From assembly GCA_964532425.1 (NCBI GenBank), contig CAZHIA010000003.1, positions 201,748 through 265,747 on the forward strand: 64,000 bases of DNA. Reading direction: 5' to 3'. Shown one piece after another: positions 3,907 through 50,545 of the stretch; within the stretch, counting starts at the first letter, position 1, and every line of letters begins with the position of its first letter. The stretch comes from an uncultured Candidatus Saccharibacteria bacterium. GTDB taxonomy: Bacteria > Patescibacteriota > Doudnabacteria > UBA920. The position numbers were made by a program, and so were the translations under genes. The notes beneath the pieces are model-generated. The model did no database searches, had not been told where the DNA came from, and saw only the letters and a program-made list of their open reading frames with translations.

Positions 3907-4821
3907 ATGCGCCCAGATACAGGCAGTCTCATGTCTACTGCATTCACCTCACCCGCAGGCACCGGCACGGTAACCGTGTGCCACTATCCAATCATCGCAG
4001 CCTTGGTGGCCGCGGAAGGGATCCTCGGCAAAGACCGGGTATGGAACGCCATCAACACCCGCCAGCAACAGTTCTTAGCAGAATCGTTCGCTGCCGGTCG
4101 CGGCCAGATTGGGAAGATTCCGGAAATCGAGTCCATAACATCCTGGGATTACCAAGTAATCAACCAGTTCCTCAGCAGCCGGGGGTTCGACATCCAGCTC
4201 GACGCGTTCGCTCCCAACGAATTCGGCGCCGCCAGCGTACTCAAGCTGGCCATGCAATGGCTGGAAGCCGGAGAAGCAGGCGTACTGATGGGGCCCGGAC
4301 GCCGCACATACGACGCAGTCATCATGAAAGGAGACGGCTTCGCACTGCGCTCCTCGCCGAATCTGGCCCACCCCGTAGTGGTGCTGAAGACGAAGACCTC
4401 AGACCTCGTACTACTGACCAAGGTCGATAAGCCGGTTAGCGAGCTCGAGCTGCCGCAGGTCGCCCGGAATATGTTCACTGCCGGGCCATCGGCGGACTAT
4501 GCCGAAGAAGTCGCATTCCCCATGGTCGACCTGGATATGCAGCCGGACATTTCCTGGCTGCTTCAGATGCACACCGTTGACTCGGCGGGTATGCCCTGGA
4601 AGATCAGCCAGGCGCTACAGCAAACCAAGTTCGCCATGGACGAATTCGGCGCCATAGTCGAAAGCGCTGCCGCACTCGGCATGCGCTGCCTGTGCATTCC
4701 GAACCGGTACGAGATTAACGGCCCGTTCGTAGCCGCGGTCTATCGACCTTCCCTGAAGCTGCCGGTTTTCATCGGCTACCTTGATACGGACTGCTGGAGC
4801 CGGCCCAACCGGACCGTGTAA
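3907..4821 (+). CDS. hypothetical protein (high-GC gene)
   Basis: 304-aa ORF with markedly higher GC than flanks; followed by hairpin terminator; shadow ORFs on both strands. Confidence 0.5.
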   Translation: MRPDTGSLMSTAFTSPAGTGTVTVCHYPIIAALVAAEGILGKDRVWNAINTRQQQFLAESFAAGRGQIGKIPEIESITSWDYQVINQFLSSRGFDIQLDAFAPNEFGAASVLKLAMQWLEAGEAGVLMGPGRRTYDAVIMKGDGFALRSSPNLAHPVVVLKTKTSDLVLLTKVDKPVSELELPQVARNMFTAGPSADYAEEVAFPMVDLDMQPDISWLLQMHTVDSAGMPWKISQALQQTKFAMDEFGAIVESAAALGMRCLCIPNRYEINGPFVAAVYRPSLKLPVFIGYLDTDCWSRPNRTV

Positions 4822-4843
4822 CCATCAGTCGCGCAAACACTCT

Positions 4844-4873
4844 AGCCACCAGTTCACGCTGGTGGCTTTTATT
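4844..4873 (+). terminator. rho-independent terminator
   Basis: AGCCACCAG-TTCACG-CTGGTGGCT followed by TTTTATT. Confidence 0.55.
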
Positions 4874-4913
4874 AATCCCCTCCATGGTGGCCATGAAGGA
4901 ACCAAATTTATGT

Positions 4914-4942
4914 AAAAAGCCCACCAATTTACATTGGTGAGC
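4914..4942 (-). terminator. putative terminator hairpin for 4929..5459 gene
   Basis: CACCAAT/ATTGGTG stem overlapping stop codon, T-run on minus strand. Confidence 0.35.
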
Positions 4943-5459
4943 TGATGGATTGGCGGTACCAAATTTGCTGCCAGTTATAGGTCCGATCCTTTATTTCGTC
5001 GATAATCTGTTGGACCTTCGAAAGCGGTAGCCGCTGGTACGGCCAGGGCAGCGGGCAGAGCCTGGCTGCGAGCTGGATGAATGGTTTCTCGAACGTGTAA
5101 TCGCGTCCCGTTTGGGAATAGCAGTGCCACGCGAGCACCTTATGGATAAGCAACCGTGCCAACAATTGACCTGGAAATGATTCTATTGAGTAGTCATTAT
5201 AAGAAAATAGATTCAGCTGTATCGGTGCCGGTCGAACAAATCGCGCCTCGGCTTCGGCTTGCAACTGTTCTTCATCCCACTCGTCCAGGCTTATGTTCTG
5301 CGGCAAAGGCATGAGCTTAAAAGCCGTTTCGATCATTAACGATCTGCGGGCCCGGCTATTGGAGATTCCTCCACTATCGTAGTACTGCCACAGCCTGCGG
5401 AGAATGAGTCTCGCAAGTTCCTGATCAGATAATTCCTTCAGAGTTCGTTTGCCGTTCAT
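4929..5459 (-). CDS. hypothetical protein
   Basis: 176-aa ORF; no recognisable motif. Confidence 0.5.
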   Translation of the reverse strand: MNGKRTLKELSDQELARLILRRLWQYYDSGGISNSRARRSLMIETAFKLMPLPQNISLDEWDEEQLQAEAEARFVRPAPIQLNLFSYNDYSIESFPGQLLARLLIHKVLAWHCYSQTGRDYTFEKPFIQLAARLCPLPWPYQRLPLSKVQQIIDEIKDRTYNWQQIWYRQSISSPM

Positions 5460-5562
5460 AATCCTCCTTAGAAAAAATATTATACACCGCTGAATGAAAA
5501 TATAAAAGCACCGCCGAATGGGGGTGCTTTTGCTAGGTGAATTTTTGCGAGTTTACCGGTCC

Positions 5563-6423
5563 CTACCACTGTTCCGCGAGGATATCTGTGGCAACCTTGA
5601 TCTTCCGTTCGAGAAATGGGGAAAACTGAGGCGAGTCGGACCACATGAACGATTTCTTCTCCATGTCGCCCGGGAGCTTCGCCATCTCGAATCTTGCCAT
5701 GGCTGCCACATGCTGAGCAAGCGGCGGATTTGCTAAGGCCTCTGGCATGACCGCATACAGCAAATATTCGGCTTCCAACAGGCGAAGCGGAGCGGCAAAC
5801 ACAAAGCCTTCGCGCAGCTCAGGATAGAGGCTGGCAAGGGCAATCGACTCGTTGTCCAACAACCCAACCAGCTCCGCATCATACGTTCCCACTCGACCCA
5901 TCATGTCCGGATGGATTGTATACGTCGCGTACGGAACACCGTTTACTACTGTCTGCGTTTCCACCCACGGACCAAGCTTGTCTTGCAACTTGGCGAGCAA
6001 CTGACAAACCAGGTCCTCTGGCATGTGGTTTACCTGGGCCAGCTGGATGGAGCTGATGGGACCGCAGGCCATGAGACCGCGAAGAACGCGATGGCAAGCC
6101 ATATATGTCATAATCTGTCTGCTAAGTTCAGCCATGGCGAAACCATGGACCGCGTCGTAGAGCATGCGCCGCTTTTCAGGGTCGTTGTTCATTGCCCAGA
6201 CCGGGTAATTAGCAGGCTGGGATGGAGTGGCTTCTCTCTTAACTATGACGCCCTCAGTCTCGAAATAGTCAATAAAGCTTTTGGCTTCCTCGCGCGTTAC
6301 TTTAGCCAAGTACTCGATTTCCTGAAGGCCGAAAACCATCAAGCTACAAATGGCTCTCCGAACGCGATCAATCGGTTCCATCTTCGGAACTTCCGGCAGC
6401 GTTAGAATCACTTTCTTATACAT
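5563..6423 (-). CDS. hypothetical protein
   Basis: start moved to MYKKVIL Met preceded by AGGAGG at 7 nt spacing. Confidence 0.55.
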   Translation of the reverse strand: MYKKVILTLPEVPKMEPIDRVRRAICSLMVFGLQEIEYLAKVTREEAKSFIDYFETEGVIVKREATPSQPANYPVWAMNNDPEKRRMLYDAVHGFAMAELSRQIMTYMACHRVLRGLMACGPISSIQLAQVNHMPEDLVCQLLAKLQDKLGPWVETQTVVNGVPYATYTIHPDMMGRVGTYDAELVGLLDNESIALASLYPELREGFVFAAPLRLLEAEYLLYAVMPEALANPPLAQHVAAMARFEMAKLPGDMEKKSFMWSDSPQFSPFLERKIKVATDILAEQW

Positions 6424-6526
6424 ACTTTCCTCCTGTAAAACATTCAACAATACCACAACAGGCGATTTTGGTCAACTCTTTATTTTTTTAGTAAAATAAT
6501 CTATAATATCAAAGAATCTAACACGT

Positions 6527-6576
6527 TGGGGTGTCGCCAAGTGGTAAGGCATCCCGATTGGATCGGGGCATTCGAA
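6527..6576 (+). tRNA. tRNA-Pro(UGG)-like 5' segment (acceptor 5' strand, D arm, anticodon arm, variable loop, first 3 nt of T stem); interrupted
   Basis: TGGGGTG-TC-GCC-AAGTGGTAA-GGC-A-TCCCG-ATTGGAT-CGGGG-CATTC-GAA then diverges; anticodon TGG at 6559-6561. Confidence 0.45.
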
Positions 6577-6581
6577 AGAGT

Positions 6582-6821
6582 ATGTACTCGGTATATATCT
6601 TAGAGAATCCCCTAGGGAAGCTCTACATTGGGCAGACCGATAATGTTGCGGAAAGATTGGAAAGGCACAATCGGAGCGGTACAAATTATACATCCCACAA
6701 AGGTCCCTGGAGAATAATTTATACAAAAGAGTTTTTGACCCGTTCCGAAGCGCTAGGGTATGAAAAGTATTTAAAAAGTCTTAAAAGTTCCCGGTATATA
6801 AAAACTGAGATCGTTCGTTAA
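6582..6821 (+). CDS. GIY-YIG nuclease, YhbQ/UPF0213-like (79 aa)
   Basis: VYILENPLGKLYIGQTDNVAERLERHN = GIY-YIG core (YIG, Arg, Glu), aligns with E. coli YhbQ; AAGAG SD-like upstream; ORF begins inside the tRNA fragment. Confidence 0.75.
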   Translation: MYSVYILENPLGKLYIGQTDNVAERLERHNRSGTNYTSHKGPWRIIYTKEFLTRSEALGYEKYLKSLKSSRYIKTEIVR

Positions 6822-6930
6822 TTTTTTTCTTCCACCCTATTGGGGTGTCGCCAAGTGGTAAGGCAGCGCCCTTTGGAGGCGCCATTCGAAGGTTCGAATC
6901 CTTCCACCCCAGCCAGGTGGAAGAAAAAAA
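6822..6930. repeat. perfect 15-bp inverted repeats TTTTTTTCTTCCACC / GGTGGAAGAAAAAAA bracketing tRNA-Gln
   Basis: IR-L 6822-6836, IR-R 6916-6930; exact reverse complements. Confidence 0.8.
6841..6915 (+). tRNA. tRNA-Gln(UUG), CCA encoded
   Basis: cloverleaf: acceptor TGGGGTG/CACCCCA (U1-A72), G73, D arm GCC-AAGTGGTAA-GGC, anticodon arm GCGCC-CTTTGGA-GGCGC (TTG 6873-6875), T arm GAAGG-TTCGAAT-CCTTC. Confidence 0.85.
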
Positions 6931-6946
6931 TTAGCCAATGCATCTA

Positions 6947-7011
6947 GTCAGTGGTAAGACATCCCGATTGGATCGGGACATTCGAAGGTTCGAATCCTTC
7001 CACCCCAGCCA
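6947..7011 (+). tRNA. tRNA-Pro(UGG)-like 3' segment (D arm through CCA) lacking a matching 5' acceptor strand
   Basis: GTC-AGTGGTAA-GAC-A-TCCCG-ATTGGAT-CGGGA-CATTC-GAAGG-TTCGAAT-CCTTC-CACCCCA-G-CCA; 7 nt at acceptor position (ATGCATC) cannot pair with CACCCCA. Confidence 0.45.
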
Positions 7012-7013
7012 TG

Positions 7014-7046
7014 AAAAAAGTATCCCCGTAAGGTGATACTTTTTTC
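7014..7046 (+). terminator. rho-independent terminator after tRNA cluster
   Basis: 14-bp stem AAAAAAGTATCCCC/GGTGATACTTTTTT (1 mismatch), GTAA loop, T-run. Confidence 0.55.
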
Positions 7047-7292
7047 ATTATGCGGACAAGATGGTGGTACCTTTCTCGATTTCGCACCGCCAATAATGAT
7101 GCTGATATAATTTCTTGTTTCTAACCTCTCTCTGTCTCTCCCCATTTCATTGGGGAGAGGACATACTAAGAAGCCAATCTATAATTACATATGAACTAGC
7201 GCGAGTGGCCAGCATAAAAGATACCCTGGACATGAGCTTCTATATATGGTATCCTGTGAGGTCTTAAAAAGACTTTCGAACAAGGAGGTAGT

Positions 7293-7667
7293 ATGGAAAC
7301 AGCTCACACAGGTGACAACTTACCGCATTTCCAAATCTGTGGGTGCGGCAAGCATGGAAGAGTAGTATTTCCCGACGGCAGGACCGGAGGGGAATTCGCA
7401 TCACAGGCACAAGGCAGACTTTGGATGGAGTACGCGGCACTGGTCGACGCATTCCAAAACGTGGATATCTTCCCCGAGGGAAAACTACAGCACCTCTTCG
7501 AAGAGATTCAAATCTCCCCGCTCCCCGACCAAATCGAACCCGACGCTTACATTCTCAAGGTAGTCGACACCTGGAATGCGGCCAAACTCCACCAACCCAG
7601 CCTGAACCCGGTTAATTTCCACCATGTCATGGACCGGCTGTGGGATTATAATGCCTTTGAGCAGTAA
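7293..7667 (+). CDS. hypothetical protein
   Basis: SD AAGGAGG then ATG; 124 aa; higher-GC block. Confidence 0.6.
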   Translation: METAHTGDNLPHFQICGCGKHGRVVFPDGRTGGEFASQAQGRLWMEYAALVDAFQNVDIFPEGKLQHLFEEIQISPLPDQIEPDAYILKVVDTWNAAKLHQPSLNPVNFHHVMDRLWDYNAFEQ

Positions 7668-7675
7668 CCAGCCTC

Positions 7676-7708
7676 GGCGGCGCGATCACCTCGCGCCGCC
7701 TTTATTTT
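7676..7708 (+). terminator. rho-independent terminator
   Basis: GGCGGCGCGA-TCACC-TCGCGCCGCC then TTTATTTT. Confidence 0.6.
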
Positions 7709-7711
7709 AAA

Positions 7712-7738
7712 TCTCCTCCATGGGGACCATGGAGGAGA
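7712..7738. repeat. 12-bp perfect palindrome TCTCCTCCATGG-GGA-CCATGGAGGAGA
   Basis: member of CCATGG-cored hairpin family. Confidence 0.6.
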
Positions 7739-7821
7739 CCACCATTGACATACATCACTAAATGTGTTATTTTTATTTGTTCAATTTGCTATTTTCAAAA
7801 ACCTCAGGAGGAAGCAAAAAG

Positions 7822-8265
7822 ATGACTCTGTTTCCCAATCAGATCATGGCTAAGCTGGCCCAGCTTGACCCTACTGCGTGTATCCGATACAGATCAAGCT
7901 TTAAGGAGACTGATCCGCGAGTTTGGTATGTTGACCTGGGTCGCATCGTGGTAAGTTCGGAGCGCGGTGGCTTTAACAGCCATCTCCACGGCACAGACGG
8001 CCCAACTCCCGACATAGCGTTATATAAAACGTGGGAAGCCATACTGGAATTTTTCCGAACGTATCCGGAAGGGTTCTTCCTGCTCTTCAGCTGCCCTCCC
8101 AATGTTCCCATCCCCGGTGATACTCCGCAAGCGTGGGTCCGCTGGGATGAACGCCAGGACGATTGGGTGAATGTCAAGCCGACAGCTCAAAGTCTGCAGG
8201 CACATCACATACCAGCCGATAGGATCGTTTCCTACACGGACCACGCTCTCGCAAGTCGGCGATAA
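7822..8265 (+). CDS. hypothetical protein
   Basis: start set at MTLFPNQ Met preceded by GGAGGAAG; 147 aa. Confidence 0.5.
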   Translation: MTLFPNQIMAKLAQLDPTACIRYRSSFKETDPRVWYVDLGRIVVSSERGGFNSHLHGTDGPTPDIALYKTWEAILEFFRTYPEGFFLLFSCPPNVPIPGDTPQAWVRWDERQDDWVNVKPTAQSLQAHHIPADRIVSYTDHALASRR

Positions 8266-8284
8266 CAGATAAAGGAGATATACA

Positions 8285-8803
8285 ATGAGCGCGCATGTTG
8301 TGACACCTATTGTCGACCCGACGAATCCGGTCGACTACTCCAAGACCGTAACGCCGCCCAACTACAAGTGCGGCAAGTGTGGCGCTACGAACTGCAAACT
8401 CTGGCGCGAATACAACACGTTTCTCGAGCACCAGCAACTGCTCTGCGTGAAATGTGCCGGAGAAGAAGAGCGAAAGAAGGTTTGCGACATTGATGCGAAC
8501 GGAAAAATCCAGTTCGAACGGCTCTGGCGCACGGACCAGATCGGCTGGATGATCCCCGCTGTACCGACCGAAGAGAATGATACCTTCTGGGGATATTCGT
8601 CGGTTCCCGCTGCCGGCTGTGAGTGGTGGTACCGGCTGCCCTCCATCTCCGAACAAACCAGAAACGAGCTCAGAAAGCTCGCTGTGACAGTCATCGATCA
8701 TGCGAAGAGTCGAGCGCGCCGCGGCCGCAAGCCGTCCATGGCGTATTGGGGAGAACGAAACCCCAACAAAGCGCTCGCGCTCGCTCGTAAGTTCGCGGCA
8801 TAA
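8285..8803 (+). CDS. hypothetical protein with CxxC...CxxC zinc-ribbon
   Basis: SD AAAGGAGA; CGKCGATNC and CVKCAG cysteine pairs. Confidence 0.55.
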   Translation: MSAHVVTPIVDPTNPVDYSKTVTPPNYKCGKCGATNCKLWREYNTFLEHQQLLCVKCAGEEERKKVCDIDANGKIQFERLWRTDQIGWMIPAVPTEENDTFWGYSSVPAAGCEWWYRLPSISEQTRNELRKLAVTVIDHAKSRARRGRKPSMAYWGERNPNKALALARKFAA

Positions 8804-21069: not shown

Positions 21070-21090
21070 GAATTAATGGTTTTCGGTATA

Positions 21091-21188
21091 CAATTCCCAA
21101 TTTCCAATATCCAATTCCCAATGGCTGGATTTTGTTGGGAAACCTGCCTGCCGGCAGGCAGGTTAGAAATTGGGTATTAGAAATTAAT
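21091..21188. repeat. MITE-like element: CCAATTTCCAAT-type arms around GC palindrome CCTGCCTGCCGGCAGGCAGG
   Basis: between rsmH and mraZ; related copy at 36848-36948. Confidence 0.55.
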
Positions 21189-21190
21189 TA

Positions 21191-21619
21191 TTACACCCCC
21201 AGCGTTCCCAGCTGCTCCGCGATATTATTGCTTTCCTTCTCGGTCTGCAACTTGTACGTATTCCAGAGTTCCTCGCTCCAAATTTCAACACGGTTGAACA
21301 AGCCGGCGAACACAATCTTCTTGTTGATTTTGGCGAAGTCCTTCAAGTAAGCAGGCAGGTTAATTCTCCCCTGCTTATCTATCTCGCAGTCCATTGCCCC
21401 GGCCAGCATCAGACGGGAAAAAGCTCTGGTGTTGGCCGTGGAAATGGGCAGGCTGGCCAGCTTTTCCGCCAGCTTCTTCCACTCGTCCATGGTATACAAA
21501 AACAGCGAATTATCGAGCCCACGGGTCACTACGACTTTAGCCTTCAGTTGGGTGCGGAATTTCGCTGGTATGGAAATTCTTCCTTTTTCATCGATATTAG
21601 CTTGGTATTCGCCGATGAA
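21191..21619 (-). CDS. mraZ: transcriptional regulator MraZ
   Basis: MFIGEYQANIDEKGRISIPAKFR ... second DxxGRxxIP repeat. Confidence 0.85.
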   Translation of the reverse strand, partial: FIGEYQANIDEKGRISIPAKFRTQLKAKVVVTRGLDNSLFLYTMDEWKKLAEKLASLPISTANTRAFSRLMLAGAMDCEIDKQGRINLPAYLKDFAKINKKIVFAGLFNRVEIWSEELWNTYKLQTEKESNNIAEQLGTLGV

Positions 21620-22195: not shown

Positions 22196-22300
22196 ATACA
22201 AATCTACAGATGTATCCGAATCTACAAATACCTACAAATTCCGGTAAGTGGAATTTGTAGGTATTTGTAGATCTGTAGCAAATTTGTAAATTTGCAGCAC
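22196..22300. repeat. repeat element containing 21-bp perfect IR CTACAAATACCTACAAATTCC / GGAATTTGTAGGTATTTGTAG
   Basis: IR arms 22222-22242 and 22250-22270; TCTACAGAT and TTTGTAAATT units shared with 39692-39790. Confidence 0.6.
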
Positions 22301-23952: not shown

Positions 23953-25626
23953 TTAATTTTGCTTATCCAGCGGCAAGGCAAAATAGAAAGTTGACCCCAG
24001 GTTTTCACCGGCGCTTTCCGCCCAGATCTTCCCGCCGTGCGCATCGATGATACCCTTACTCACGACCAGTCCAAGCCCGGTCCCCTTCCGGCTGTGCTCC
24101 AAAGTCTTCAACTGCTTGAACTTAGAAAATAATACCGGCAAATCTTCACGCGCTATTCCAATTCCGGTGTCTTTGACGGAAACAACCACCGTGTGATCGG
24201 CTTCGCCTACGGCAACATTGAGGTTGATCTGCCCGGAATCGGTGTATTTTATGGAATTGCTCAACAAGTTGCCGATCACCTGGGAAATCCTCACCCGGTC
24301 GAAATTCAGTCGGTATTTGTCCGGACAGGTAACGGTCAACTCCAAATGCTTAGTTTGGGCCTGCGGAGTAAACATCTTCACCTGGTCCTTTACCACCTCA
24401 ACTATATCATAGTTTTGCATATTTAACTCAAATTTACCAGCCTCAATCTTGGCCACATCCAACAGGTCGTTGACCAGTTCAAGCATGTTATTAGAGGCAG
24501 TCTCAATGGTCACCATGGTTTCCTTGACCTTAGCCGGATCGGTTCCCTGCGCCAAAGACAGATTCTTAATAAGGGACTCCGAAGACCAGCGAACCGCGGT
24601 CAACGGGGCCCGTAACTCGTGGACCATCATGGCGGTAAATTCCTGTCGGACCTTCTCCAGCGATTTTTCCGATGTGATGTCATGGAAAACTACGGATGCG
24701 CCAATATTTTCTCCCAGCGAGCTCTTCACCGGGCTGATAACCACTTCCAACGCCTTATCTTTCAACAGTACCTCGGATATAACAATGGGCTTGTCCTCAG
24801 CCAGAGCTTGTTCAATTTTCGTGCGCAGGTCCAATTTTCCGGCAAGGGCATCCACAATATCAAACATAGTCAGTGGCTTATCACCACTGATACCGAGCGT
24901 CTGTTTGACCGCCGGATTGGATACCGTCAGCTGATGGTTTAAATCCACCGTGACCACACCGTCAGCCAGGGAATAAATAATGGCAGCCAACTTGCCCTTT
25001 TCGCTCTCGAGTACGGTCTGCAGTTTGGAAACCGCAGTCGCCGCCTGGTTAGTAATGGTATATAAAATGGCAGCCTGCTTTTCCCCGTACCGCCCTTTCT
25101 CGCGTGATGCAACATTAATGAGCCCGACTAACCGTCCGGAAATTACCACCGGGAGGTTAAAATATGATTCCACATCGGCATTGAGATTGTCATCCAATAT
25201 GTTGCCGGTAATGCTTTCATCAATGTGCTGCGGCTTAGTTTCATCATTCATGATCGCCTGGTAAGAGCCAAGCATCTTGAATTTGATCTTTTCGATGAAC
25301 GCATGATTGACCGTGCTTTCGACATGGCACTTGAACACCAGATTGCCATCCTGCGCAACGAGAATATGCGATACTGTATCGTACCCCAACAAATTCCCAA
25401 GCGAGCTGGTAATAATTTCCACGACTTTGCCGGTGTCGAGGCTATAGCCGATGCGCTCGTTGATCTCTTTTAAGACTTGTGCCTGGTAAACCTTCTGCTG
25501 CAGCTCAAGAGATTGGCTGGCTTCGGCGCGCAAAAACTTCCGCTCGCGGTTCGAGGCATACAAATACGCTCCGACCACGATGGCCAGCATGAGAAAATCT
25601 ATGACGAGCAGGAGGTTGATAATCAT
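23953..25626 (-). CDS. sensor histidine kinase (TM, GAF/PAS-like, HisKA, HATPase)
   Basis: H-box HELRAPLTAV; G-boxes DTGIGI, GTGLGLVVSKGII. Confidence 0.8.
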   Translation of the reverse strand: MIINLLLVIDFLMLAIVVGAYLYASNRERKFLRAEASQSLELQQKVYQAQVLKEINERIGYSLDTGKVVEIITSSLGNLLGYDTVSHILVAQDGNLVFKCHVESTVNHAFIEKIKFKMLGSYQAIMNDETKPQHIDESITGNILDDNLNADVESYFNLPVVISGRLVGLINVASREKGRYGEKQAAILYTITNQAATAVSKLQTVLESEKGKLAAIIYSLADGVVTVDLNHQLTVSNPAVKQTLGISGDKPLTMFDIVDALAGKLDLRTKIEQALAEDKPIVISEVLLKDKALEVVISPVKSSLGENIGASVVFHDITSEKSLEKVRQEFTAMMVHELRAPLTAVRWSSESLIKNLSLAQGTDPAKVKETMVTIETASNNMLELVNDLLDVAKIEAGKFELNMQNYDIVEVVKDQVKMFTPQAQTKHLELTVTCPDKYRLNFDRVRISQVIGNLLSNSIKYTDSGQINLNVAVGEADHTVVVSVKDTGIGIAREDLPVLFSKFKQLKTLEHSRKGTGLGLVVSKGIIDAHGGKIWAESAGENLGSTFYFALPLDKQN

Positions 25627-25671
25627 AACAACAGCGGAGGTTCGCGATGAACCAGCCGAATTAGTTGGGTA

Positions 25672-25938
25672 TTAATCAAGTTTCAATTGGGGATATTTCT
25701 TGACCAGTGCGGCCATGGTAATTCCGAACACGTACTCCGAGAGTGCGCGAAATTCATTCATTACGGCTTTGAAGATCATGACTGGGTCGCCGCCCATAGT
25801 CAAAACCACACCCTCGTCGCTAACCTTGATCCCGGGAACCTTGCGCGCCCTGTCGACGGCGATGTTCGGGCCCAATATAACCATCTGTTTCTGAATCAGT
25901 TCGGTCAAGGCTTTTCTATATTCTTCTTGTTCTGCCAT
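25672..25938 (-). CDS. hypothetical small protein
   Basis: 88-aa ORF upstream of kinase. Confidence 0.4.
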   Translation of the reverse strand: MAEQEEYRKALTELIQKQMVILGPNIAVDRARKVPGIKVSDEGVVLTMGGDPVMIFKAVMNEFRALSEYVFGITMAALVKKYPQLKLD

Positions 25939-26147
25939 GATTTTTATTTCATTGAGAAGCTTTATACAGATTTATTATACCACATTTCCACCATGCTACA
26001 CTATTCCTGTTGAAAACCCTGTTCAGATGTCTCGCGGAAGCACGGATAACACGGACCCCGTGGGAATAAGACGGCCATTCCGCGCCATCTGCGAAACCCG
26101 CATATCCGCGAGATAACTATTCCTGAAGGTAGATATTGTACATCACT

Positions 26148-27722
26148 CTAGCTATCACCCATCTCTTTCCACTCATTCCGCTCCCGCAGGCGTCCAAAAC
26201 CTATAGAGTCTCGAATGACATTCCGGGCGGCAATCACCGGCGCGCGGCACACGGTAAAATCGCCATATTTTTTATCAAGCTTGTCTAAGGCCTCATCAAC
26301 GCGCCGGGTGCGCTCGGCGTCGCCGAACAGGCTCAGTTGGTTCACCGCTTCGGACAGGCCGGAAACGGTCACACCTATTAATTTAATACCGCTGATCGGT
26401 CGCTGACGGGAACGCTGATCGGTCGCTGATTTTACAGCCACGTAACCCTCCATATTGATACGGTCAAATATTTTCATACATTCCAAAAAGATTTCCCGAC
26501 CGTCCTGAGTGTTGTAGCCAAGTTTTTTTGACTGGCCATAACACTCATGATCCTTGTCGTGCAGGTGGAAATGTAGCACATTGCCCCATAACCCTTGCAG
26601 CCGCAGGCGACGGCTCACCATTTCGCACAACCGGTAGAGCACGGGCACGAAATACTTCCGTTCCCGGTATTCTTCCGGAAGCGTGTACATATGGCCCATA
26701 GACTTGATGTCTTGTTCGTCCGCCACATCTTCTTTCCAACTGCCTTCCAGCTGTCCCATACTATGCAAATGGTGGCCTAAAATGCCAAACTTGCTGACCA
26801 GCCAGCTTTTAGGGTATTTCCGCAGATCCGCCAGTGTCTTGATTCCCATTTCATTCAGGCGCCGTTCCTGCCGCACGCCAATACCGGGGATATCAATCAA
26901 TTTCAAACGATGGTATAAGTCTTCTTTGGTAAGCACAATAGCCCTGACACCCGCACTCTTCACTCCGCACTCTGCACTTTTCACTACCACCAATCCATCG
27001 GGCTTTTGCAGGTCTGAAGCAATCTTGGCAATGAGTTTATTGGGACCAATACCGACGGAACAGGTCAGGTAGTCACCCACCTCGCGCTTCATCCGCCGCT
27101 TGATGGTTTGGGCAATCTTCACCGCCTCCTCGAACGGGTCGGCTGCTCGGTAATCTTGTTGGTGTTTCATCCAATAATACTCCACTTCGGGATCTTGCCC
27201 GCCCAAAGGCCTCAAGGCCAATGTGGGGGGTCCGCCTGAATGTCTGTCAGGGCTTTCGGCGGAAAAATTGGAAATTGGAAATTTGACCCTGTCATTCGTC
27301 AGGGCCATCCCGTCGCATGACGGGATGGCACCTGACATTTGATAGCTATTCGGCTTCTGGAATGTGGTGATCGGAATTCTGATATTACTTGCCTTCGTAA
27401 TATCCAAAAACACCTCGTCAATGCTGTACACCTCCACTTTGTCCGTATAATCACCCACCACTCTGTGAAGGCGCGAAGCATACAGCCGGTAGCGCTCCGG
27501 ATGCGTCTTGGTCAGGATAATTTTAGGATAGAGCTTTCTTGCCTCCCACACAGCCGTGCCGGTCTTGATGCCCCAACGCTTAGCTTCAATGCTAGCCGCA
27601 ATGATAATACCGCCCAGGTGCTCGCACACGCCGACCGGCTTGCCGCGATACTCAGGATTATCCTGCTGCTCCACCGAAGCGAAGTAGCTGTTCATGTCGA
27701 GATGGAGAATAATGGGAGGCAT
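26148..27722 (-). CDS. dinB: DNA polymerase IV (Y-family, DinB) with extra in-frame segments
   Basis: ILHLDMNSYFASVEQ, SIDEVFLD, IGPNKLIAKIASD core motifs; ~75-aa and ~12-aa insertions relative to E. coli DinB coincide with repeat DNA. Confidence 0.75.
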   Translation of the reverse strand: MPPIILHLDMNSYFASVEQQDNPEYRGKPVGVCEHLGGIIIAASIEAKRWGIKTGTAVWEARKLYPKIILTKTHPERYRLYASRLHRVVGDYTDKVEVYSIDEVFLDITKASNIRIPITTFQKPNSYQMSGAIPSCDGMALTNDRVKFPISNFSAESPDRHSGGPPTLALRPLGGQDPEVEYYWMKHQQDYRAADPFEEAVKIAQTIKRRMKREVGDYLTCSVGIGPNKLIAKIASDLQKPDGLVVVKSAECGVKSAGVRAIVLTKEDLYHRLKLIDIPGIGVRQERRLNEMGIKTLADLRKYPKSWLVSKFGILGHHLHSMGQLEGSWKEDVADEQDIKSMGHMYTLPEEYRERKYFVPVLYRLCEMVSRRLRLQGLWGNVLHFHLHDKDHECYGQSKKLGYNTQDGREIFLECMKIFDRINMEGYVAVKSATDQRSRQRPISGIKLIGVTVSGLSEAVNQLSLFGDAERTRRVDEALDKLDKKYGDFTVCRAPVIAARNVIRDSIGFGRLRERNEWKEMGDS

Positions 27723-27983
27723 GCTATTAATTCAAAATGAAAAATTCAAAATTCAAAATGTAGGTGTCCGCCGAAGGCGGACTCTATAACTTTTAACTTT
27801 ACACTTTTAACTTTGAACTGATATGTGTACGTTCGTTCACCTTATTATGATAGCATAAAAAAACGGCCAAAGCCGTAAGTTGTCCACAAGAAGCTTTCAG
27901 CTATCAGCTTATAGCTGTTAGGAGGGGCCGATAAAAAGAACTTCAATGCTGGTATTCCTATAAGCTAAAAGCTATAAGCTTGC

Positions 27984-28463
27984 CTAATGTTTTTTCTCCT
28001 GCCCTCCCGGCAGGCTCCCGTGGTGTTCGCTTCCCTGGGCGCCGTGTTGTTGGCTGTGCTGTCCGTGTCCCCCGCCATGATGTGCATGGTGGTGAGCCGC
28101 CAGCTCCCGCCGCACATGAACATGGCGCTTCTTATGAAAAAAGAAGATGGTCAAACCGAACAGCAGATATCCTGCCCAGAATGGCCAGCGCTTATATGGC
28201 TCGTAACCAACGATCGGTACTATAACGAGAAAGTCTCCCAGCAGGGAAAGCAACAGCCAGACAATAGCCGTCATCAGTCCTTCCAGGTAGTTAATCACCC
28301 CGAGGCGCCGGCAGCAGGCCAACGTGGCCAGGCAAATTAAAAAGCCGAACAGAACCTGGGCAAACAAAGTATCTATCCCGGTGAATTTGAAAAAAAGGAC
28401 CTTAATGGCAACCGTAAGCAGCCAGGCCAGAAAGCCGTAGCCAAAAAATTTTTTGAAGGTCAT
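27984..28463 (-). CDS. hypothetical membrane protein, His-rich C-terminus
   Basis: four TM helices; HHHAHHGGGHGQH tail. Confidence 0.45.
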   Translation of the reverse strand: MTFKKFFGYGFLAWLLTVAIKVLFFKFTGIDTLFAQVLFGFLICLATLACCRRLGVINYLEGLMTAIVWLLLSLLGDFLVIVPIVGYEPYKRWPFWAGYLLFGLTIFFFHKKRHVHVRRELAAHHHAHHGGGHGQHSQQHGAQGSEHHGSLPGGQEKKH

Positions 28464-28467
28464 ATAA

Positions 28468-28551
28468 ATATAAAACCTTTAACATTTAACATTTGACCTT
28501 TAACTTAATACAAAACCGGTCAAATGTCATATGTCAAAGGTTAAATGTTGT
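28468..28551. repeat. MITE-like element, TTTGACATTTGACC family copy 1
   Basis: AACATTTAACATTTGACC ... GGTCAAATGTCATATGTCAAAGGTTAAATGTT inverted arms. Confidence 0.6.
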
Positions 28552-28563
28552 CTTGGCAATAGA

Positions 28564-29082
28564 CTATTTCACGGTTTTTCTTGCCACGCGCTTGCGCACA
28601 GTCGGTTTGACGGTCGGTTTTATGGTAACCGGCATCCGTTCTACTTCCTTCGAAAGGTCTTCCAACTCCCACAAGCCCTTTTCCAAATCGCGGGCCACAT
28701 CTGCGGTCAAGTGCGAGATACGGGTTTTCAGTGTACCGGGTTGATAAGAGGGCTTGACCCTGGCGCTGGCATACAACAGGTGTTCCAAAAGGCCGCCATG
28801 GATATTGCTTTCATACACTGCCTCATACCAGTATGAACCGATCCAGATCCCATACCAAACACCACCGAGCAGGGCAAAAACCATCGTGATATACTCCAGC
28901 GCCAGGAATTCGATCCCGGATAAGCCGAATGTCAGAAAATCATTGCTCTCTGCTAAGATGACGAAATACAAAAACACTGCGATCCGGTGCAGGATCAAAA
29001 AGAGCAATGCCCCTAACAGCGCGGTGAGAAAAATATAAAAAACTTTTCTCGCTCCATTTGTCATATAATTTTTATTTCCCAA
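28564..29082 (-). CDS. hypothetical membrane protein
   Basis: 172 aa, several TM helices. Confidence 0.45.
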   Translation of the reverse strand: MGNKNYMTNGARKVFYIFLTALLGALLFLILHRIAVFLYFVILAESNDFLTFGLSGIEFLALEYITMVFALLGGVWYGIWIGSYWYEAVYESNIHGGLLEHLLYASARVKPSYQPGTLKTRISHLTADVARDLEKGLWELEDLSKEVERMPVTIKPTVKPTVRKRVARKTVK

Positions 29083-29141: not shown

Positions 29142-29222
29142 ACATGCGACATGTAACCTTTGACATTTGACCAACCGAAACAGATTCACGTCAAATGTTA
29201 AATGTCAATTGTCAAATGTCCT
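29142..29222. repeat. MITE-like element, TTTGACATTTGACC family copy 2
   Basis: TAACCTTTGACATTTGACC ... GTCAAATGTTAAATGTCAATTGTCAAATGTCC. Confidence 0.6.
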
Positions 29223-36735: not shown

Positions 36736-36847
36736 TTCATTTGCCTCCTGCTATGGAATTTTTTGTTTACGCCTCATACAATTTTGAAACGCAATTGTAT
36801 TTAAAAGCAATTTGTTTTTTGTGTCAAGATGTGGACAAATGGAAAAA

Positions 36848-36948
36848 TCCAATTTCCAATTCCCAATTTCTAATAAAACACCCAAACTGACCAGTACCAG
36901 TTTGGGTGTTCTGAATTTTTTGGAAATTAGATATTGGAAATTGGAAAT
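36848..36948. repeat. MITE-like element: CCAATTTCCAATTCCCAATTTCTAAT / ATTAGATATTGGAAATTGGAAATTT arms around 13-bp perfect hairpin AACACCCAAACTG/CAGTTTGGGTGTT
   Basis: immediately downstream of pgk stop; same family as 21091-21188. Confidence 0.6.
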
Positions 36949-38175
36949 TTATTTCAATGCTTCTATCCCCGGCAGTTTCTTGCCGGCTAAATATTCCAGC
37001 ATGGCGCCGCCACCGGTGGAGACATGGTCGATATTCTCAAACTGGTGCGATTGCCTCACCGCATCCACCGTTTCTCCGCCACCGACTACGGCATAAGCCT
37101 TGCGGCCGGCAACACCGCCGATGACGCGCGCCAAAGCCATAGTAGCCGTGCGGAACGGCTTGGCTTCAAAATAGCCTAGCGGGCCATTCCAGACGATGGT
37201 TTTGGCTGCTTTGAGCTCTTCCGCATACATGAGAATAGTCTTCGGCCCAACATCCAGGATCATCTCTTGCTTGCCCACCTCATAGGGCGTACGGACCCGA
37301 ATCGAATCGCGGCTCATATTCTTGTCTGCCACTACGACATCCACGGGCAACAGCAGTTTATCCTTGAAATTCTTCGAGATCTCAAAAGCAATGCGTTCCG
37401 CCCCGTCTTCCGCTTTCGACAATCCGACTTCCATACCTTTCGCTTTGAAGATCAATGTAGACAATCCCCCGCCAAGCAGGATCTTGTCAGCCTTTTCCCC
37501 GAGATGGGTAAGCGTCTTGGCTTTGTCGGAAATTTTAATGCCACCCATGAGCAGGACAAAGGGTTTCTTGTGCTTATGAGTCACGACATCAAGCGATTTA
37601 ATCTCTTGCTCCAGTAACGGGCCACAATATGACGGTAATAATTTCGTAATGACAGCTGTCGACGCGGCAGCCCGATGGCACACGGAAAAAGCGTCGTTGA
37701 CATAGACATCACCCAAACGAGCCAGACACCGCGCGAAATATTTGTCATTCTCCTCTTCACCCTTGTAGAAGCGGAGGTTTTCCAGCATGACAATATCCTT
37801 GGCCGTAATATTCTTGAGCTGGTCAGCGTGCAGGTCAGCCATAATGTTCCCGGTGTAGAAGATGAGATGGCTAATGGGGTACTCAGGCAGCGGGTGATGA
37901 GTTTCCAAAAACTTATACCCTAAATGCCCGGCAAGGACCTTGGCCACGGGCTTCAACGACAAACTCTTATCCCGGCCCTCGGGCCTTCCCAAATGCCCGC
38001 AGAGAATAATGCGATTATTCCCTTCCTGAAGCATCCGAATGGTCGGAATAATGGAGGCAATGCGAAAATCATCCGCCACCTTGCCGGTCTTATCGTCAAT
38101 CGGAACATTCACATCCACGCGCAGAAGGATGGTTTTATTTTTTAGGGTAGTGGGTTTTAGATACTTGATGGACAT
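36949..38175 (-). CDS. pgk: phosphoglycerate kinase
   Basis: MSIKYLKPTT...RVDVNVP; GGGA/GGGETV nucleotide-binding motifs. Confidence 0.9.
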   Translation of the reverse strand: MSIKYLKPTTLKNKTILLRVDVNVPIDDKTGKVADDFRIASIIPTIRMLQEGNNRIILCGHLGRPEGRDKSLSLKPVAKVLAGHLGYKFLETHHPLPEYPISHLIFYTGNIMADLHADQLKNITAKDIVMLENLRFYKGEEENDKYFARCLARLGDVYVNDAFSVCHRAAASTAVITKLLPSYCGPLLEQEIKSLDVVTHKHKKPFVLLMGGIKISDKAKTLTHLGEKADKILLGGGLSTLIFKAKGMEVGLSKAEDGAERIAFEISKNFKDKLLLPVDVVVADKNMSRDSIRVRTPYEVGKQEMILDVGPKTILMYAEELKAAKTIVWNGPLGYFEAKPFRTATMALARVIGGVAGRKAYAVVGGGETVDAVRQSHQFENIDHVSTGGGAMLEYLAGKKLPGIEALK

Positions 38176-50318: not shown

Positions 50319-50545
50319 AATTTTATAGAGTGTAGGTCCGCCGAAGCTTTCTGATAAAAGGCAGCTCACACACTCTGGAATTAAATATTTATTTTAGAAA
50401 AATATTACAAGCACCGAAAGCGAAGGCGGAACGGAATTCAGACATTTATTTTCTTATAGTATGGAGATCCGCCGAAGCTTCAGCGAAGGCGGGACGGAAC
50501 TCATTTATGTTGTTATTGAGCAAAAATCCTCCAAGGTTCTCTGGC

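What the first reader, a model, noticed from the sequence alone, without database searches (positions are those of the whole stretch)
26940..27350. dinB carries in-frame insertions that coincide with palindromic repeat DNA
The Y-family core motifs are intact, but the ORF is 524 aa. Relative to E. coli DinB there is a ~75-aa insertion between the SIDEVFLD finger region and the ...IGPNKLIAKIASD segment. It is encoded by 27231-27350, which contains MITE-like arm sequence (GGAAAAATTGGAAATTGGAAATTT) and two hairpins (CCCTG...CAGGG; ATCCCGTC-GCAT-GACGGGAT). A second ~12-aa insertion is encoded by the CACTC[T/C]GCACT tandem repeats at 26940-27000. The frame is preserved, so either the polymerase tolerates repeat-encoded loops or this is a recent in-frame MITE invasion of a mutagenesis gene.
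Basis: partly seen in the sequence, partly recalled or inferred. Interest (0 to 1): 0.55.

Follow-up and report, generated by a model that had tools for sequence, protein, structure and literature searches.

The report
Repeat DNA translated inside dinB loops
An intact error-prone DNA polymerase gene of an uncultured Patescibacteria (Doudnabacteria-like) bacterium carries three in-frame stretches built from the genome's own intergenic-type repeat DNA, and relatives carry different repeats at the same loops, much like the palindromic elements found inside Rickettsia genes.

Summary
dinB (26148-27722, minus strand, 524 aa) is an intact Y-family polymerase with extra segments at three loops:
- Site 1: 78 aa, 27144-27377.
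- Site 2: about 16 aa, 26931-26978.
- Site 3: about 16-21 aa, 26388-26450.

Site 1 holds a heptamer arm and three hairpins. Site 2 is a tract with 7-nt period. Site 3 is a 17-nt direct repeat. In this window these motifs are otherwise almost only intergenic.

About 200 orthologues show that sites 1 and 2 are insertion hot spots: 35-50% carry at least 8 extra aa there. The inserts fall into many unrelated sequence families. All 54 tested are open in the gene frame. Eleven of 54 match other places in their own genome, against 0 of 540 shuffles. Species with about 90% identical cores carry unrelated inserts.

The AlphaFold model keeps the core confident (pLDDT above 90) and leaves insert 1 unstructured (below 50).

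So "the polymerase tolerates repeat-encoded loops" is supported and "ancestral domain" is refuted. A recent MITE invasion of this particular gene is not shown: there is no full copy, no terminal inverted repeat and no target duplication within 64 kb. The closest known parallel is the Rickettsia palindromic elements. I found no report of this for Patescibacteria.

The parts
26148..27722 (-). dinB (DNA polymerase IV, Y family), intact 524-aa ORF
   Evidence: ORF. Pfam IMS 4.7e-39, IMS_C 1.1e-15, IMS_HHH_1 4e-08. PDB Pol IV 7yll 7e-41. Foldseek TM 0.82 to Dpo4 and E. coli DinB.
27144..27377 (-). Insert 1 (hot spot 1). Residues 116-193, 78 aa, in the palm loop between the catalytic SIDE strand and the DPFEEA helix. 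A composite of repeat modules.
   Evidence: Boundaries from the 120- and 79-sequence alignments. Translation checked. RNA fold z = -3.6 and -4.4. pLDDT below 50 for residues 128-174.
27339..27377 (-). Insert 1, 5' module: IPITTFQKPNSYQ, a degenerate heptamer-arm-like segment. Compare IPNKKFQITNKSQ and FPISNFQFPNKFQ in orthologues.
   Evidence: The resemblance is by eye and was not tested statistically.
27298..27336 (.). Hairpin 1: perfect 11-bp GC-rich stem (27304-27314 / 27319-27329), extended by GTCAGG/CCTGAC.
   Evidence: (I7). It is the only GC-rich perfect hairpin inside an ORF of at least 150 aa in the window.
27261..27284 (.). Heptamer arm GGAAAAATTGGAAATTGGAAATTT, encoding KFPISNFS.
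   Evidence: 18/18-nt match to the arm of the intergenic palindrome at 36933-36950, with further matches at 36851-36869 and 21099-21116. None of 200 shuffles reach this score.
27231..27263 (.). Hairpin 2: TCCGCC...GGCGGA stem with a 21-nt loop. The stem is the same as in the intergenic hairpin 27767-27781.
   Evidence: 3 matches in the window against 0.11 expected. CCGCCGAA(N)GC occurs 5 times against 0.32 expected. One search gives the alignment.
27197..27230 (.). Hairpin 3: GGCC-TCAA-GGCC core flanked by C-rich and G-rich runs.
   Evidence: MFE structure; sequence.
26931..26985 (-). Insert 2 (hot spot 2). Residues about 249-264 (SAECGVKSAGVRAIVL) at the palm-thumb junction, encoded by a period-7 tract at 26954-26985.
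   Evidence: No copy elsewhere in the window and no significant fold.
26388..26450 (-). Insert 3 (minor hot spot). Residues 425-445 (EGYVAVKSATDQRSRQRPISG) in a little-finger loop. Holds the 17-nt direct repeat CGCTGATCGGTCGCTGA twice (26390-26406, 26413-26429).
   Evidence: (D5). The same direct repeats, with a 39-nt spacer, are present in the syntenic relative L092.
27729..27820 (.). Intergenic palindromic element directly upstream of dinB: heptamer arm, TCCGCCGAAGGCGGA hairpin, then inverted arm. It shows what the genome's intergenic elements look like.
   Evidence: (D3, D9, D14, I6).
26325..26339 (-). QLSLF beta-clamp-binding-type motif (residues 462-466), intact.
   Evidence: Q462 and F466 are invariant in 120 homologues. 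That this motif binds the clamp rests on established knowledge of DinB.
27414..27419 (-). Catalytic Asp-Glu pair (D102, E103) of the SIDE motif, 13 residues before insert 1.
   Evidence: Invariant.

Best explanation
**What it is.** dinB here is a working-looking Pol IV gene. Three of its surface loops have taken up pieces of the genome's own intergenic-type repeat DNA: A/T-rich arms with 7-nt periodicity, GC-rich hairpins and short direct repeats. These pieces are translated as extra loop residues.

**How it most likely works.**
1. Such repeats normally sit between genes in this lineage and are copied around the genome by a non-autonomous process (transposition or recombination). This step is inferred.
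2. Copies that land in dinB survive only at a few permissive loops, mainly the palm loop after the catalytic Asp-Glu and the palm-thumb junction. They survive only if they keep the reading frame open. The pattern is shown; selection as its cause is inferred.
3. The inserted peptides are flexible surface loops that leave the catalytic core, little finger and clamp motif intact. This is modelled, not measured.
4. Inserts are gained, lost and replaced quickly, so each species carries a different one. This is shown in relatives.

**Age in this gene.** Insert 1 is a composite and not demonstrably recent. Insert 3 predates the split from the syntenic relative L092.
For: **Intact polymerase.**

**Insert DNA looks like this genome's intergenic DNA.**
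- Period-7 tracts: 8 in the window against 0 for neighbouring periods. Seven lie outside long ORFs and one lies in dinB.
- 18 of 21 perfect hairpins lie outside ORFs of at least 150 aa, and the GC-rich exception is in insert 1.
- The heptamer arm and the TCCGCC stem recur in intergenic elements.

**Lineage evidence.**
- 35-50% of orthologues have at least 8 extra aa at site 1, and 39-44% at site 2.
- 22 site-1 inserts fall into 15 similarity clusters, and 35 site-2 inserts into 23.
- 77 of 79 dinB ORFs found in the 80 relative loci are complete; the other two are N-masked or cut by a contig end.
- 54/54 inserts are open in the gene frame, against 10/54 and 8/54 in the other frames.
- 11/54 inserts match their own flanks at 34 bits or more, against 0/540 dinucleotide shuffles.
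- The L004 site-1 insert is a 150-nt palindrome. A 60-nt stretch is 95% identical to an intergenic copy 7 kb away.
- The syntenic relative L092 has an unrelated 132-nt palindrome at site 1.
- Cores that are 86-93% identical carry inserts with only 20-50% nucleotide identity.
- Inserts fold better than core segments: mean z -2.26 against -0.21, p = 7e-4.
- dinB carries 2.5 period-7 tracts per 10 kb, against 0.47 in other long ORFs.

**Structure.** Core pLDDT is above 90. Insert 1 is below 50, and inserts 2 and 3 are about 58-71. No terminator-like site lies inside the gene.
Against: - For this gene no second full copy of any insert was found in 64 kb.
- No terminal inverted repeats or target duplication are seen.
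- Hairpin 1 is not a dispersed family in JGI metagenomes.
- Inserts 2 and 3 are direct or heptamer repeats without palindromic structure. They could have arisen locally rather than by insertion.
- The closest orthologue is only about 61-68% identical, so gain cannot be dated.
- Low pLDDT may reflect the lack of alignment depth in the insert rather than true disorder.
- Translation and enzyme activity are untested.
Confidence: 0.7

Rival explanations
1. Local origin. The extra segments were generated on the spot in mutation-tolerant loops, by replication slippage, tandem duplication and template switching that create heptamer tracts and hairpins. They were not inserted from copies elsewhere.
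For: - Insert 2 is a pure period-7 tract and insert 3 a 17-nt direct repeat. Neither has a copy elsewhere in the window.
- L013 differs from L015 by a second C-rich/G-rich hairpin that resembles its neighbour.
- The heptamer units differ from species to species.
Against: - In relatives, inserts share 25-60-nt near-identical stretches with distant intergenic DNA and with other genes: 11/54 against 0/540 shuffles.
- A dispersed terminal motif GTCATYSYGAG occurs at about 5 times the naive expectation in the flanks and about 17 times inside dinB.
- Insert 1 shares an 18-nt arm and a stem with intergenic elements in the window.
Confidence: 0.17
2. Functional switch. The intragenic heptamer tracts and hairpins are kept because they regulate a mutagenic polymerase. 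One route is frameshifting on gain or loss of a 7-nt unit (phase variation). Another is mRNA structure that throttles expression.
For: - dinB is about 5 times richer in period-7 tracts than other long ORFs in 77 relatives.
- A 7-nt unit is not a multiple of 3, so changes in unit number would shift the frame.
- Heptanucleotide repeats mediate phase variation in Haemophilus (abstract of PMC2651432).
Against: - The tracts are imperfect and short, about 4.5 units here, which disfavours slippage.
- All 77 complete orthologues are in frame.
- No terminator-like site lies inside the gene.
- The same repeats also sit in RecJ and RsmH of relatives.
Confidence: 0.07
3. Ancestral lineage-specific domain. 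The extra segments are an inherited functional module of Patescibacteria DinB, and their repeat-like look is coincidental.
For: - The clade does have conserved additions: a C-terminal extension of about 55 aa, and a partly conserved (E/D)W..A(D/N)P stretch at the 3' end of site 1.
- Insert 3's direct repeats are shared with L092.
Against: - Insert length ranges from 0 to more than 100 aa.
- Inserts fall into 15 and 23 unrelated clusters.
- Close relatives have an empty site (L052, L050).
- No Pfam family covers the inserts.
Confidence: 0.03
4. Not part of the protein. The inserts are removed or bypassed (intron, intein, translational hop), or the gene is a pseudogene or an assembly artefact.
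For: Insert 1 is strongly structured as RNA.
Against: - No Rfam family matches inside the gene at E <= 1.
- No intein or other domain is detected.
- 54/54 inserts are kept open in frame, which removal would not require.
- A second assembly gives the identical sequence.
Confidence: 0.03

Closest known systems
Rickettsia palindromic elements (RPEs; Ogata et al. 2000, as reviewed in PMC10969869)
   Same: Both are short palindromic repeat DNA inserted in frame into unrelated housekeeping genes. Both are translated as extra peptide at positions judged compatible with the protein fold. Here this applies to dinB in the window, and to RecJ and RsmH in relatives.
   Different: - RPEs form defined families of about 150 bp, each with a conserved encoded peptide. 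Here the inserts are heterogeneous modules (heptamer arms, hairpins, direct repeats) and differ between species.
- The same two loops of one gene are hit again and again and turned over.
- The host is a Patescibacteria lineage, not an alphaproteobacterial endosymbiont.
MITEs and REP/BIME-type extragenic palindromes (including intragenic ERIC and BOX cases; PMC10969869)
   Same: All are small non-coding palindromic repeats, mostly intergenic, that occasionally form in-frame fusions. In relatives a dispersed family with terminal motif GTCATYSYGAG / CTCRSRATGAC sits in dinB.
   Different: For the window's own inserts no terminal inverted repeats, target duplication or multiple full copies could be shown. 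No transposase partner (IS or RAYT) was looked for.
Heptanucleotide tandem repeats of cyanobacteria (STRR; my own recollection) and the intergenic TAACTGA repeats of Beggiatoaceae (PMC4679880, abstract)
   Same: Both are tandem 7-nt units that are abundant and mostly intergenic.
   Different: - Here the heptamer tracts form inverted arms around a GC hairpin.
- The unit sequence changes from locus to locus.
- Some tracts are translated inside genes.
Tandem repeats in Borg elements that create disordered protein regions (PMC9879509, abstract)
   Same: Both are rapidly evolving, independently arising repeat DNA inside ORFs that is kept in frame and adds disordered segments.
   Different: Borg repeats are perfect tandem direct repeats. 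The dinB inserts are mostly imperfect heptamer tracts and palindromes shared with intergenic DNA.
Human DNA polymerase kappa palm-loop insertion (my own recollection: a roughly 60-residue segment disordered in crystal structures)
   Same: A long unstructured insertion appears to be tolerated at the same palm loop after the catalytic Asp-Glu. This fits Pol kappa aligning to the query as a single stretch (4-413 against 102-485), while Pol IV alignments break there.
   Different: The Pol kappa loop is a fixed feature of that protein and is not repeat-derived or variable between close species. The equivalence was not verified residue by residue here.

Membership tests
Y-family DNA polymerase IV (DinB) | IMS palm/fingers domain containing the catalytic Asp and Asp-Glu | tested here: met
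   PF00817 at 4.7e-39. D9 and D102-E103 are present and invariant. Motif I reads D-M-N rather than D-M-D across the whole clade.
Y-family DNA polymerase IV (DinB) | Thumb (HhH) and little-finger (IMS_C) domains, and the overall fold | tested here: met
   PF21999 and PF11799 match. The AF2 core has pLDDT above 90. Foldseek gives TM 0.82 to Dpo4 and E. coli DinB.
Y-family DNA polymerase IV (DinB) | Beta-clamp-binding motif QL[SD]LF | tested here: met
   QLSLF at residues 462-466, with Q462 and F466 invariant. Binding itself is untested.
MITE | Terminal inverted repeats bounding the inserted segment | tested here: not met
   Only internal hairpins were found in 27144-27377, with no end-to-end inverted repeat. 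The feature is met for the inserts of relatives L004 and L092.
MITE | Target-site duplication | not testable with these tools
   No empty allele or close relative is available. The best orthologue is about 61-68% identical.
MITE | Several near-identical copies in the same genome | tested here: inconclusive
   There is no full copy in the 64-kb window; only an 18-nt arm and a 6-bp stem recur. The rest of the genome could not be searched.
RPE-like in-frame palindromic element | Palindromic DNA that preserves the host reading frame | tested here: met
   Insert 1 has z = -4.4. It is open in frame 0 only, with stops in all five other frames.
RPE-like in-frame palindromic element | Located at a surface position compatible with the fold | tested here: met
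   All three inserts fall between secondary-structure elements of a confident core and themselves have low pLDDT. This is a model only.
RPE-like in-frame palindromic element | The same element family (a conserved peptide) is present in several different host genes | tested here: inconclusive
   Not seen in the window. dinB is its only long ORF with a heptamer tract or a GC-rich perfect hairpin; two other long ORFs carry AT-rich perfect hairpins. In relatives, pieces of the dinB inserts recur in RecJ and RsmH. A peptide search of the protein database was uninformative.
REP / RAYT system | An associated RAYT (Y1 transposase) gene and hundreds of intergenic copies | not tested
   The window's ORFs were not screened for a Y1 transposase, and the whole genome is not available.
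Phase-variable simple-sequence contingency locus | A perfect tandem tract whose unit number varies between alleles | tested here: not met
   The tract 26954-26985 has 4.5 imperfect units. All 77 complete orthologues are in frame. Allele variation could not be tested without reads.
Self-splicing intron or intein | A recognisable ribozyme structure or intein splicing motifs | tested here: not met
   There are no Rfam hits inside the gene at E <= 1. No Pfam domain lies in residues 112-195.

The most novel reading that the evidence does not exclude
Doudnabacteria-like Patescibacteria may have a class of palindromic elements with heptamer arms that is directed to a few fixed positions in particular genes. 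The positions seen are two loops of dinB, plus sites in RecJ and RsmH. At these positions one element repeatedly replaces another, giving a cassette-like, site-specific turnover. This could double as a control on a mutagenic polymerase, either through frame-shifting 7-nt units or through mRNA structure. Under this reading the pattern is not just a passive filter of random insertions by loop tolerance.
Probability: 0.12. Interest if true: 0.8.

Novelty: new variant of a known kind. Interest (0 to 1): 0.55.

Why it matters
In-frame colonisation of housekeeping genes by palindromic repeat DNA is best known from Rickettsia. Finding it in Patescibacteria has several consequences.

- **Wider phenomenon.** It extends to a huge, uncultured, genome-reduced lineage, with two loops of one polymerase hit in a third to a half of species and unrelated inserts in near-identical genes.
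- **Natural experiment.** It gives a set of examples of how disordered loops are born and replaced.
- **Annotation.** It explains why CPR proteins are often oddly long, and warns annotators and structure predictors that such segments are repeat-derived.
- **Open question.** dinB is about 5 times richer in these repeats than neighbouring genes. This may reflect simple tolerance or something tied to the gene's role in mutagenesis.

Tried and rejected
- **Rfam scan of 25900-28100 at E <= 1.** It gave only two sub-threshold hits (Ysr49, sok) in the upstream intergenic palindrome and nothing in the gene. The intron or ribozyme idea was dropped.
- **Whole-window BLAST of the three inserts.** No full copies were found.
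- **Metagenome scan for hairpin 1 (CCATCCCGTC-N4-GACGGGATGG).** It returned 10 hits in unrelated contexts, with GC from 39 to 73% and unrelated flanks, so hairpin 1 is not a family.
- **Protein-database search with the 78-aa insert peptide.** It returned nothing, not even the parent protein, so it is uninformative.
- **Alignment of the five CCGCCGAA(N)GC sites.** Only the 9-nt core and A/T-rich left flanks are shared, which is too weak to call a family.
- **Literature searches.** Searches for Patescibacteria/CPR combined with palindromic or extragenic repeats, heptanucleotide repeats or in-frame elements found no prior description.
- **Composition anomaly.** Considered and rejected: the insert has GC 0.513 against 0.519 for the gene.
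- **First period-7 threshold.** It was too strict and found only 2 tracts. It was relaxed, with other periods as controls.
- **L035.** My motif regex found no dinB ORF in this locus, and I did not examine it further.
Full report
**1. The gene and the observation**

The finding lies in one ORF, 26148..27722 on the minus strand, 524 aa. It matches Pfam IMS (4.7e-39), IMS_HHH_1 and IMS_C, and solved Pol IV/Dbh/Dpo4 structures (best 7yll, 7e-41).

Against 7yll the alignment breaks from query 111 to 203 while the chain moves only from 112 to 119. That is about 85 extra residues right after SIDEVFLD. A second gap of 14 residues falls at query 248-263.

- the arm GGAAAAATTGGAAATTGGAAATTT at 27261-27284;
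- a perfect 11-bp hairpin at 27304-27329, extendable to 27298-27336;
- CCCTG...CAGGG at 27288-27305;
- the tract CACTCTT CACTCCG CACTCTG CACTTTT CACT at 26954-26985.

A Logan assembly of run SRR11567520 reproduces window 25624-28547 without a mismatch.
- Insert 1 spans 27144-27377 (78 aa, residues 116-193), not just 27231-27350.
- There is a third insert at 26388-26450 that contains a 17-nt direct repeat.
- Part of the excess length over E. coli DinB is a clade-wide C-terminal extension of about 55 aa after the QLSLF clamp motif.

**2. Is the coincidence with repeat DNA more than chance?**

In the 64-kb window, tracts with 7-nt periodicity occur 8 times. Periods 4, 5, 6, 8, 9 and 10 give none. 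Seven of the eight tracts lie outside ORFs of at least 150 aa, and the eighth is dinB insert 2.

Of 21 perfect hairpins (stem at least 9 bp), 18 lie outside long ORFs, although such ORFs cover 71% of the window. The only GC-rich one inside a long ORF is in dinB insert 1.

The intergenic elements have a recognisable plan: heptamer arm, GC hairpin, inverted arm. Examples are 36844-36950, 21090-21200, and 27729-27820 directly upstream of dinB.

Insert 1 shares modules with these elements:
- an 18/18-nt arm match to 36933-36950, which none of 200 shuffles reach;
- the stem TCCGCC...GGCGGA, which occurs 3 times in the window against 0.11 expected, once at 27767-27781;
- the half-hairpin CCGCCGAA(N)GC, 5 occurrences against 0.32 expected.

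Insert 1 also folds far better than shuffles (z = -3.6 and -4.4). Inserts 2 and 3 are direct repeats with no significant fold and no other copy in the window.

**3. What the relatives show**

The 120 best homologues are Patescibacteria/Doudnabacteria DinB proteins of 413-540 aa, at most about 66% identical to the query. I also fetched 80 genomic loci.

*Hot spots.* Alignments reveal two dominant insertion hot spots:
- Site 1 lies between CNI[KR] and DPFEEA. At least 8 extra aa are present in 35-50% of sequences.
- Site 2 lies between KPDGLVV and DLYxxLxLxDIPGIG, with 39-44%.

Minor sites include the little-finger loop used by insert 3.

*Insert content.* The inserted peptides are not homologous to one another. 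Many read as translated repeat DNA. Examples are FPISNFQFPNKFQ from (TTTCCAA)n, NAECKMQN...SAFCIHHSAF, and VIPSE..EESL...SLHSSDALGRDDT. By BLASTN, 22 site-1 inserts form 15 clusters and 35 site-2 inserts form 23.

*Reading frame.* My motif search found a dinB ORF in 79 of the 80 loci, and 77 of these are complete. One of the other two is N-masked and one is cut by a contig end. All 54 inserts tested are stop-free in the gene frame, against 10/54 and 8/54 in the other two frames. The loci were found by tblastn on N-terminal motifs, so intactness was not a selection criterion.

*Copies elsewhere in the same genome.* Insert DNA recurs within the flanking 8 kb of its own genome. Eleven of 54 inserts have a match of at least 34 bits, against 0 of 540 dinucleotide shuffles.
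- The clearest case is L004. Its site-1 insert is a 150-nt palindrome (-75.9 kcal/mol) with end motifs GGCGTCATYCTGAG. A 60-nt stretch is 95% identical to an intergenic copy 7 kb away.
- The L004 site-2 insert matches DNA just downstream of the gene, 39 nt at 92%.
- Some copies lie inside other real genes: RecJ in L036 and L012, and RsmH/MraW in L020 and L007.

*Turnover is fast.*
- L052 and L050 have an empty site 1. L015 has one palindrome there, and L013 has two. Their cores are 91-93% identical.
- L012, L018, L021 and L042 have cores 86-91% identical. Each carries a different heptamer-armed element at both sites. Insert nucleotide identity is 0.37-0.51 where measured (L018/L021, L012/L021), while third-codon positions of the core are 0.62-0.66 identical.
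- L092 is a syntenic relative with the same dinB / 88-aa gene / histidine kinase order; the kinase is 71% identical. At site 1 it has an unrelated 132-nt palindrome with GTCATTGCGAG/CTCGCAATGAC ends. At site 3 it shares the window's 17-nt direct repeats, with a 39-nt rather than a 6-nt spacer.

*Enrichment in dinB.* Across 77 loci, period-7 tracts occur at 2.54 per 10 kb in dinB, 0.47 in other long ORFs and 2.17 in the remainder. Hairpins occur at 2.36, 0.78 and 5.10. Inserts are more self-complementary than core segments (mean z -2.26 against -0.21; Mann-Whitney p = 7e-4).

**4. Structure**

An AlphaFold2 model built on the 120-sequence alignment has mean pLDDT 83 and pTM 0.75.
- The core is above 90.
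- Residues 128-174 of insert 1 are below 50.
- Insert 2 is about 70 and forms the tip of a beta hairpin (strands 244-248 and 262-265).
- Insert 3 is 58-71, lying between helix 408-424 and strand 446-454.

Foldseek places the model with Dpo4 and E. coli DinB (TM 0.82 on the target) and with Pol kappa. D9, D102-E103 and QLSLF are intact. No terminator-like site is predicted inside the gene. Low pLDDT in the inserts may partly reflect the absence of aligned homologues there.

**5. How it most likely works**

*Shown:*
- The polymerase gene is intact.
- Three loop insertions are made of motif types that are otherwise intergenic in this genome.
- In relatives, the same loops hold unrelated inserts that are always in frame. 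Some of them have copies elsewhere in the genome, and they turn over quickly.

*Inferred:*
- The repeats spread by a non-autonomous copy mechanism (transposition or recombination).
- Selection removes every insertion that breaks the frame or hits structured parts. Only a few loops accumulate them.
- The inserts are translated as flexible surface loops that do not disable the enzyme.

I put 0.7 on this account.

For the window's gene specifically, insert 1 is a composite: a degenerate arm, hairpin 1, an arm, hairpin 2 and hairpin 3, then a partly conserved helix. It has no detectable twin in 64 kb, so "recent invasion" is unproven. Insert 3 is older than the split from L092. Insert 2 could equally be a local heptamer expansion.

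**6. Rivals**

- **Purely local generation by slippage or template switching (0.17).** This fits inserts 2 and 3 and the L013/L015 difference. It does not fit the long matches to distant copies in relatives.
- **A regulatory or phase-variation role (0.07).** It is suggested by the roughly 5-fold enrichment in dinB and by the 7-nt unit. However, the tracts are imperfect, all orthologues are in frame, and RecJ and RsmH are hit too.
- **An ancestral domain (0.03).** It is contradicted by empty sites and unrelated inserts.
- **Removal, bypass or artefact (0.03).** It is contradicted by universal frame preservation, the lack of Rfam or intein signals, and the identical second assembly.

**7. Comparison with what is known**

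*Closest parallel.* The closest parallel is the Rickettsia palindromic elements: palindromic repeats of about 150 bp inserted in frame in many unrelated genes at fold-compatible positions (PMC10969869). The present case works like that but differs in three ways:
- The inserts are heterogeneous modules rather than families with a conserved peptide.
- They carry arms with 7-nt periodicity.
- The same two loops of one gene are repeatedly re-used and replaced.

*MITE membership.* It cannot be claimed for the window's inserts. No terminal inverted repeats were found, a target duplication is untestable, and copy number is unknown.

*Other partial analogues:*
- heptanucleotide intergenic repeats in Beggiatoaceae (PMC4679880) and cyanobacteria (my recollection);
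- Borg tandem repeats that create disordered regions (PMC9879509);
- the long disordered palm-loop insertion of human Pol kappa at what appears to be the same position. This is my recollection. It is consistent with the single-stretch Pol kappa alignment but was not checked residue by residue.

*Literature.* Four literature searches found no description of this phenomenon in Patescibacteria/CPR. The library is limited to open-access papers.

**8. Verdict**

Tolerance of repeat-encoded loops is supported, and the ancestral-domain alternative is refuted. A recent MITE invasion is not demonstrated for this copy.
- Novelty: a new variant of a known kind, RPE-like in-frame repeat colonisation in a new lineage, with hot-spot turnover and heptamer-armed elements.
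- Interest: 0.55.

Noticed in passing
window 28473-28504 and 29190-29220: Two period-7 tracts built from ACATTTA/ACATTTG-type units lie in inverted orientation on either side of the 172-aa ORF 28564-29082. The small gene is thus bracketed by matching heptamer arms about 700 nt apart.
   Followed up: no
window 22220-22272: An intergenic perfect palindrome with a 23-bp stem and heptamer-like arms (ATCTACAAATACCTACAAATTCC / GGAATTTGTAGGTATTTGTAGAT). It is the longest perfect hairpin in the window.
   Followed up: no
window 50324-50500; also 2123-2132 and 27760-27790: A small repeat family sharing (TATAGAG)-GTAGGT-CCGCCGAAGC. The copy at 50337-50430 looks like the same hairpin with about 60 nt inserted in its loop. 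This parallels the enlarged loop of hairpin 2 in dinB insert 1.
   Followed up: partly
window 26148-27722 (dinB protein residues 9-11 and 462-524): Two clade-wide peculiarities of the polymerase. Motif I reads D-M-N, with N11 nearly invariant, instead of the usual D-M-D. The QLSLF clamp motif is internal and is followed by a conserved extension of about 55 aa (...LDKINxKYGDFTVCRAP...DSIGFGR).
   Followed up: no
L036 109-1743 and L012 1223-2950 (RecJ); L020 15350-16291 and L007 15224-16159 (RsmH/MraW): In relatives, pieces of the dinB inserts (hairpins, heptamer tracts) also occur inside RecJ and RsmH coding sequences. In both RecJ genes the DHH domain is stretched relative to the Pfam profile. 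In-frame repeat inserts are therefore not confined to dinB.
   Followed up: partly
L092 (GCA_034680565.1, JAXOUH010027419.1) 4755-8473 against window 23953-27722: This relative conserves the gene order dinB / 88-aa ORF / PAS-HisKA histidine kinase (kinase 71% identical, DinB 61%). It is the best available outgroup for dating the inserts. Site 3 is shared with the window, while sites 1 and 2 are unrelated.
   Followed up: yes
window 27859-27984: Weak sub-threshold Rfam hits (Ysr49 at 26.5 bits against a gathering score of 95; sok at 19.3 against 59) fall on the AGCTATA/AGCTTAT palindromic arms upstream of dinB. They are most likely chance matches to a long hairpin.
   Followed up: no
L002-L092, all loci: The terminal motif GTCATYSYGAG / CTCRSRATGAC occurs 29 times in about 1.2 Mb. 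That is 0.20 per 10 kb outside dinB and 0.64 inside it, against a naive expectation of 0.04. It marks a palindromic element family dispersed across Patescibacteria genomes.
   Followed up: partly
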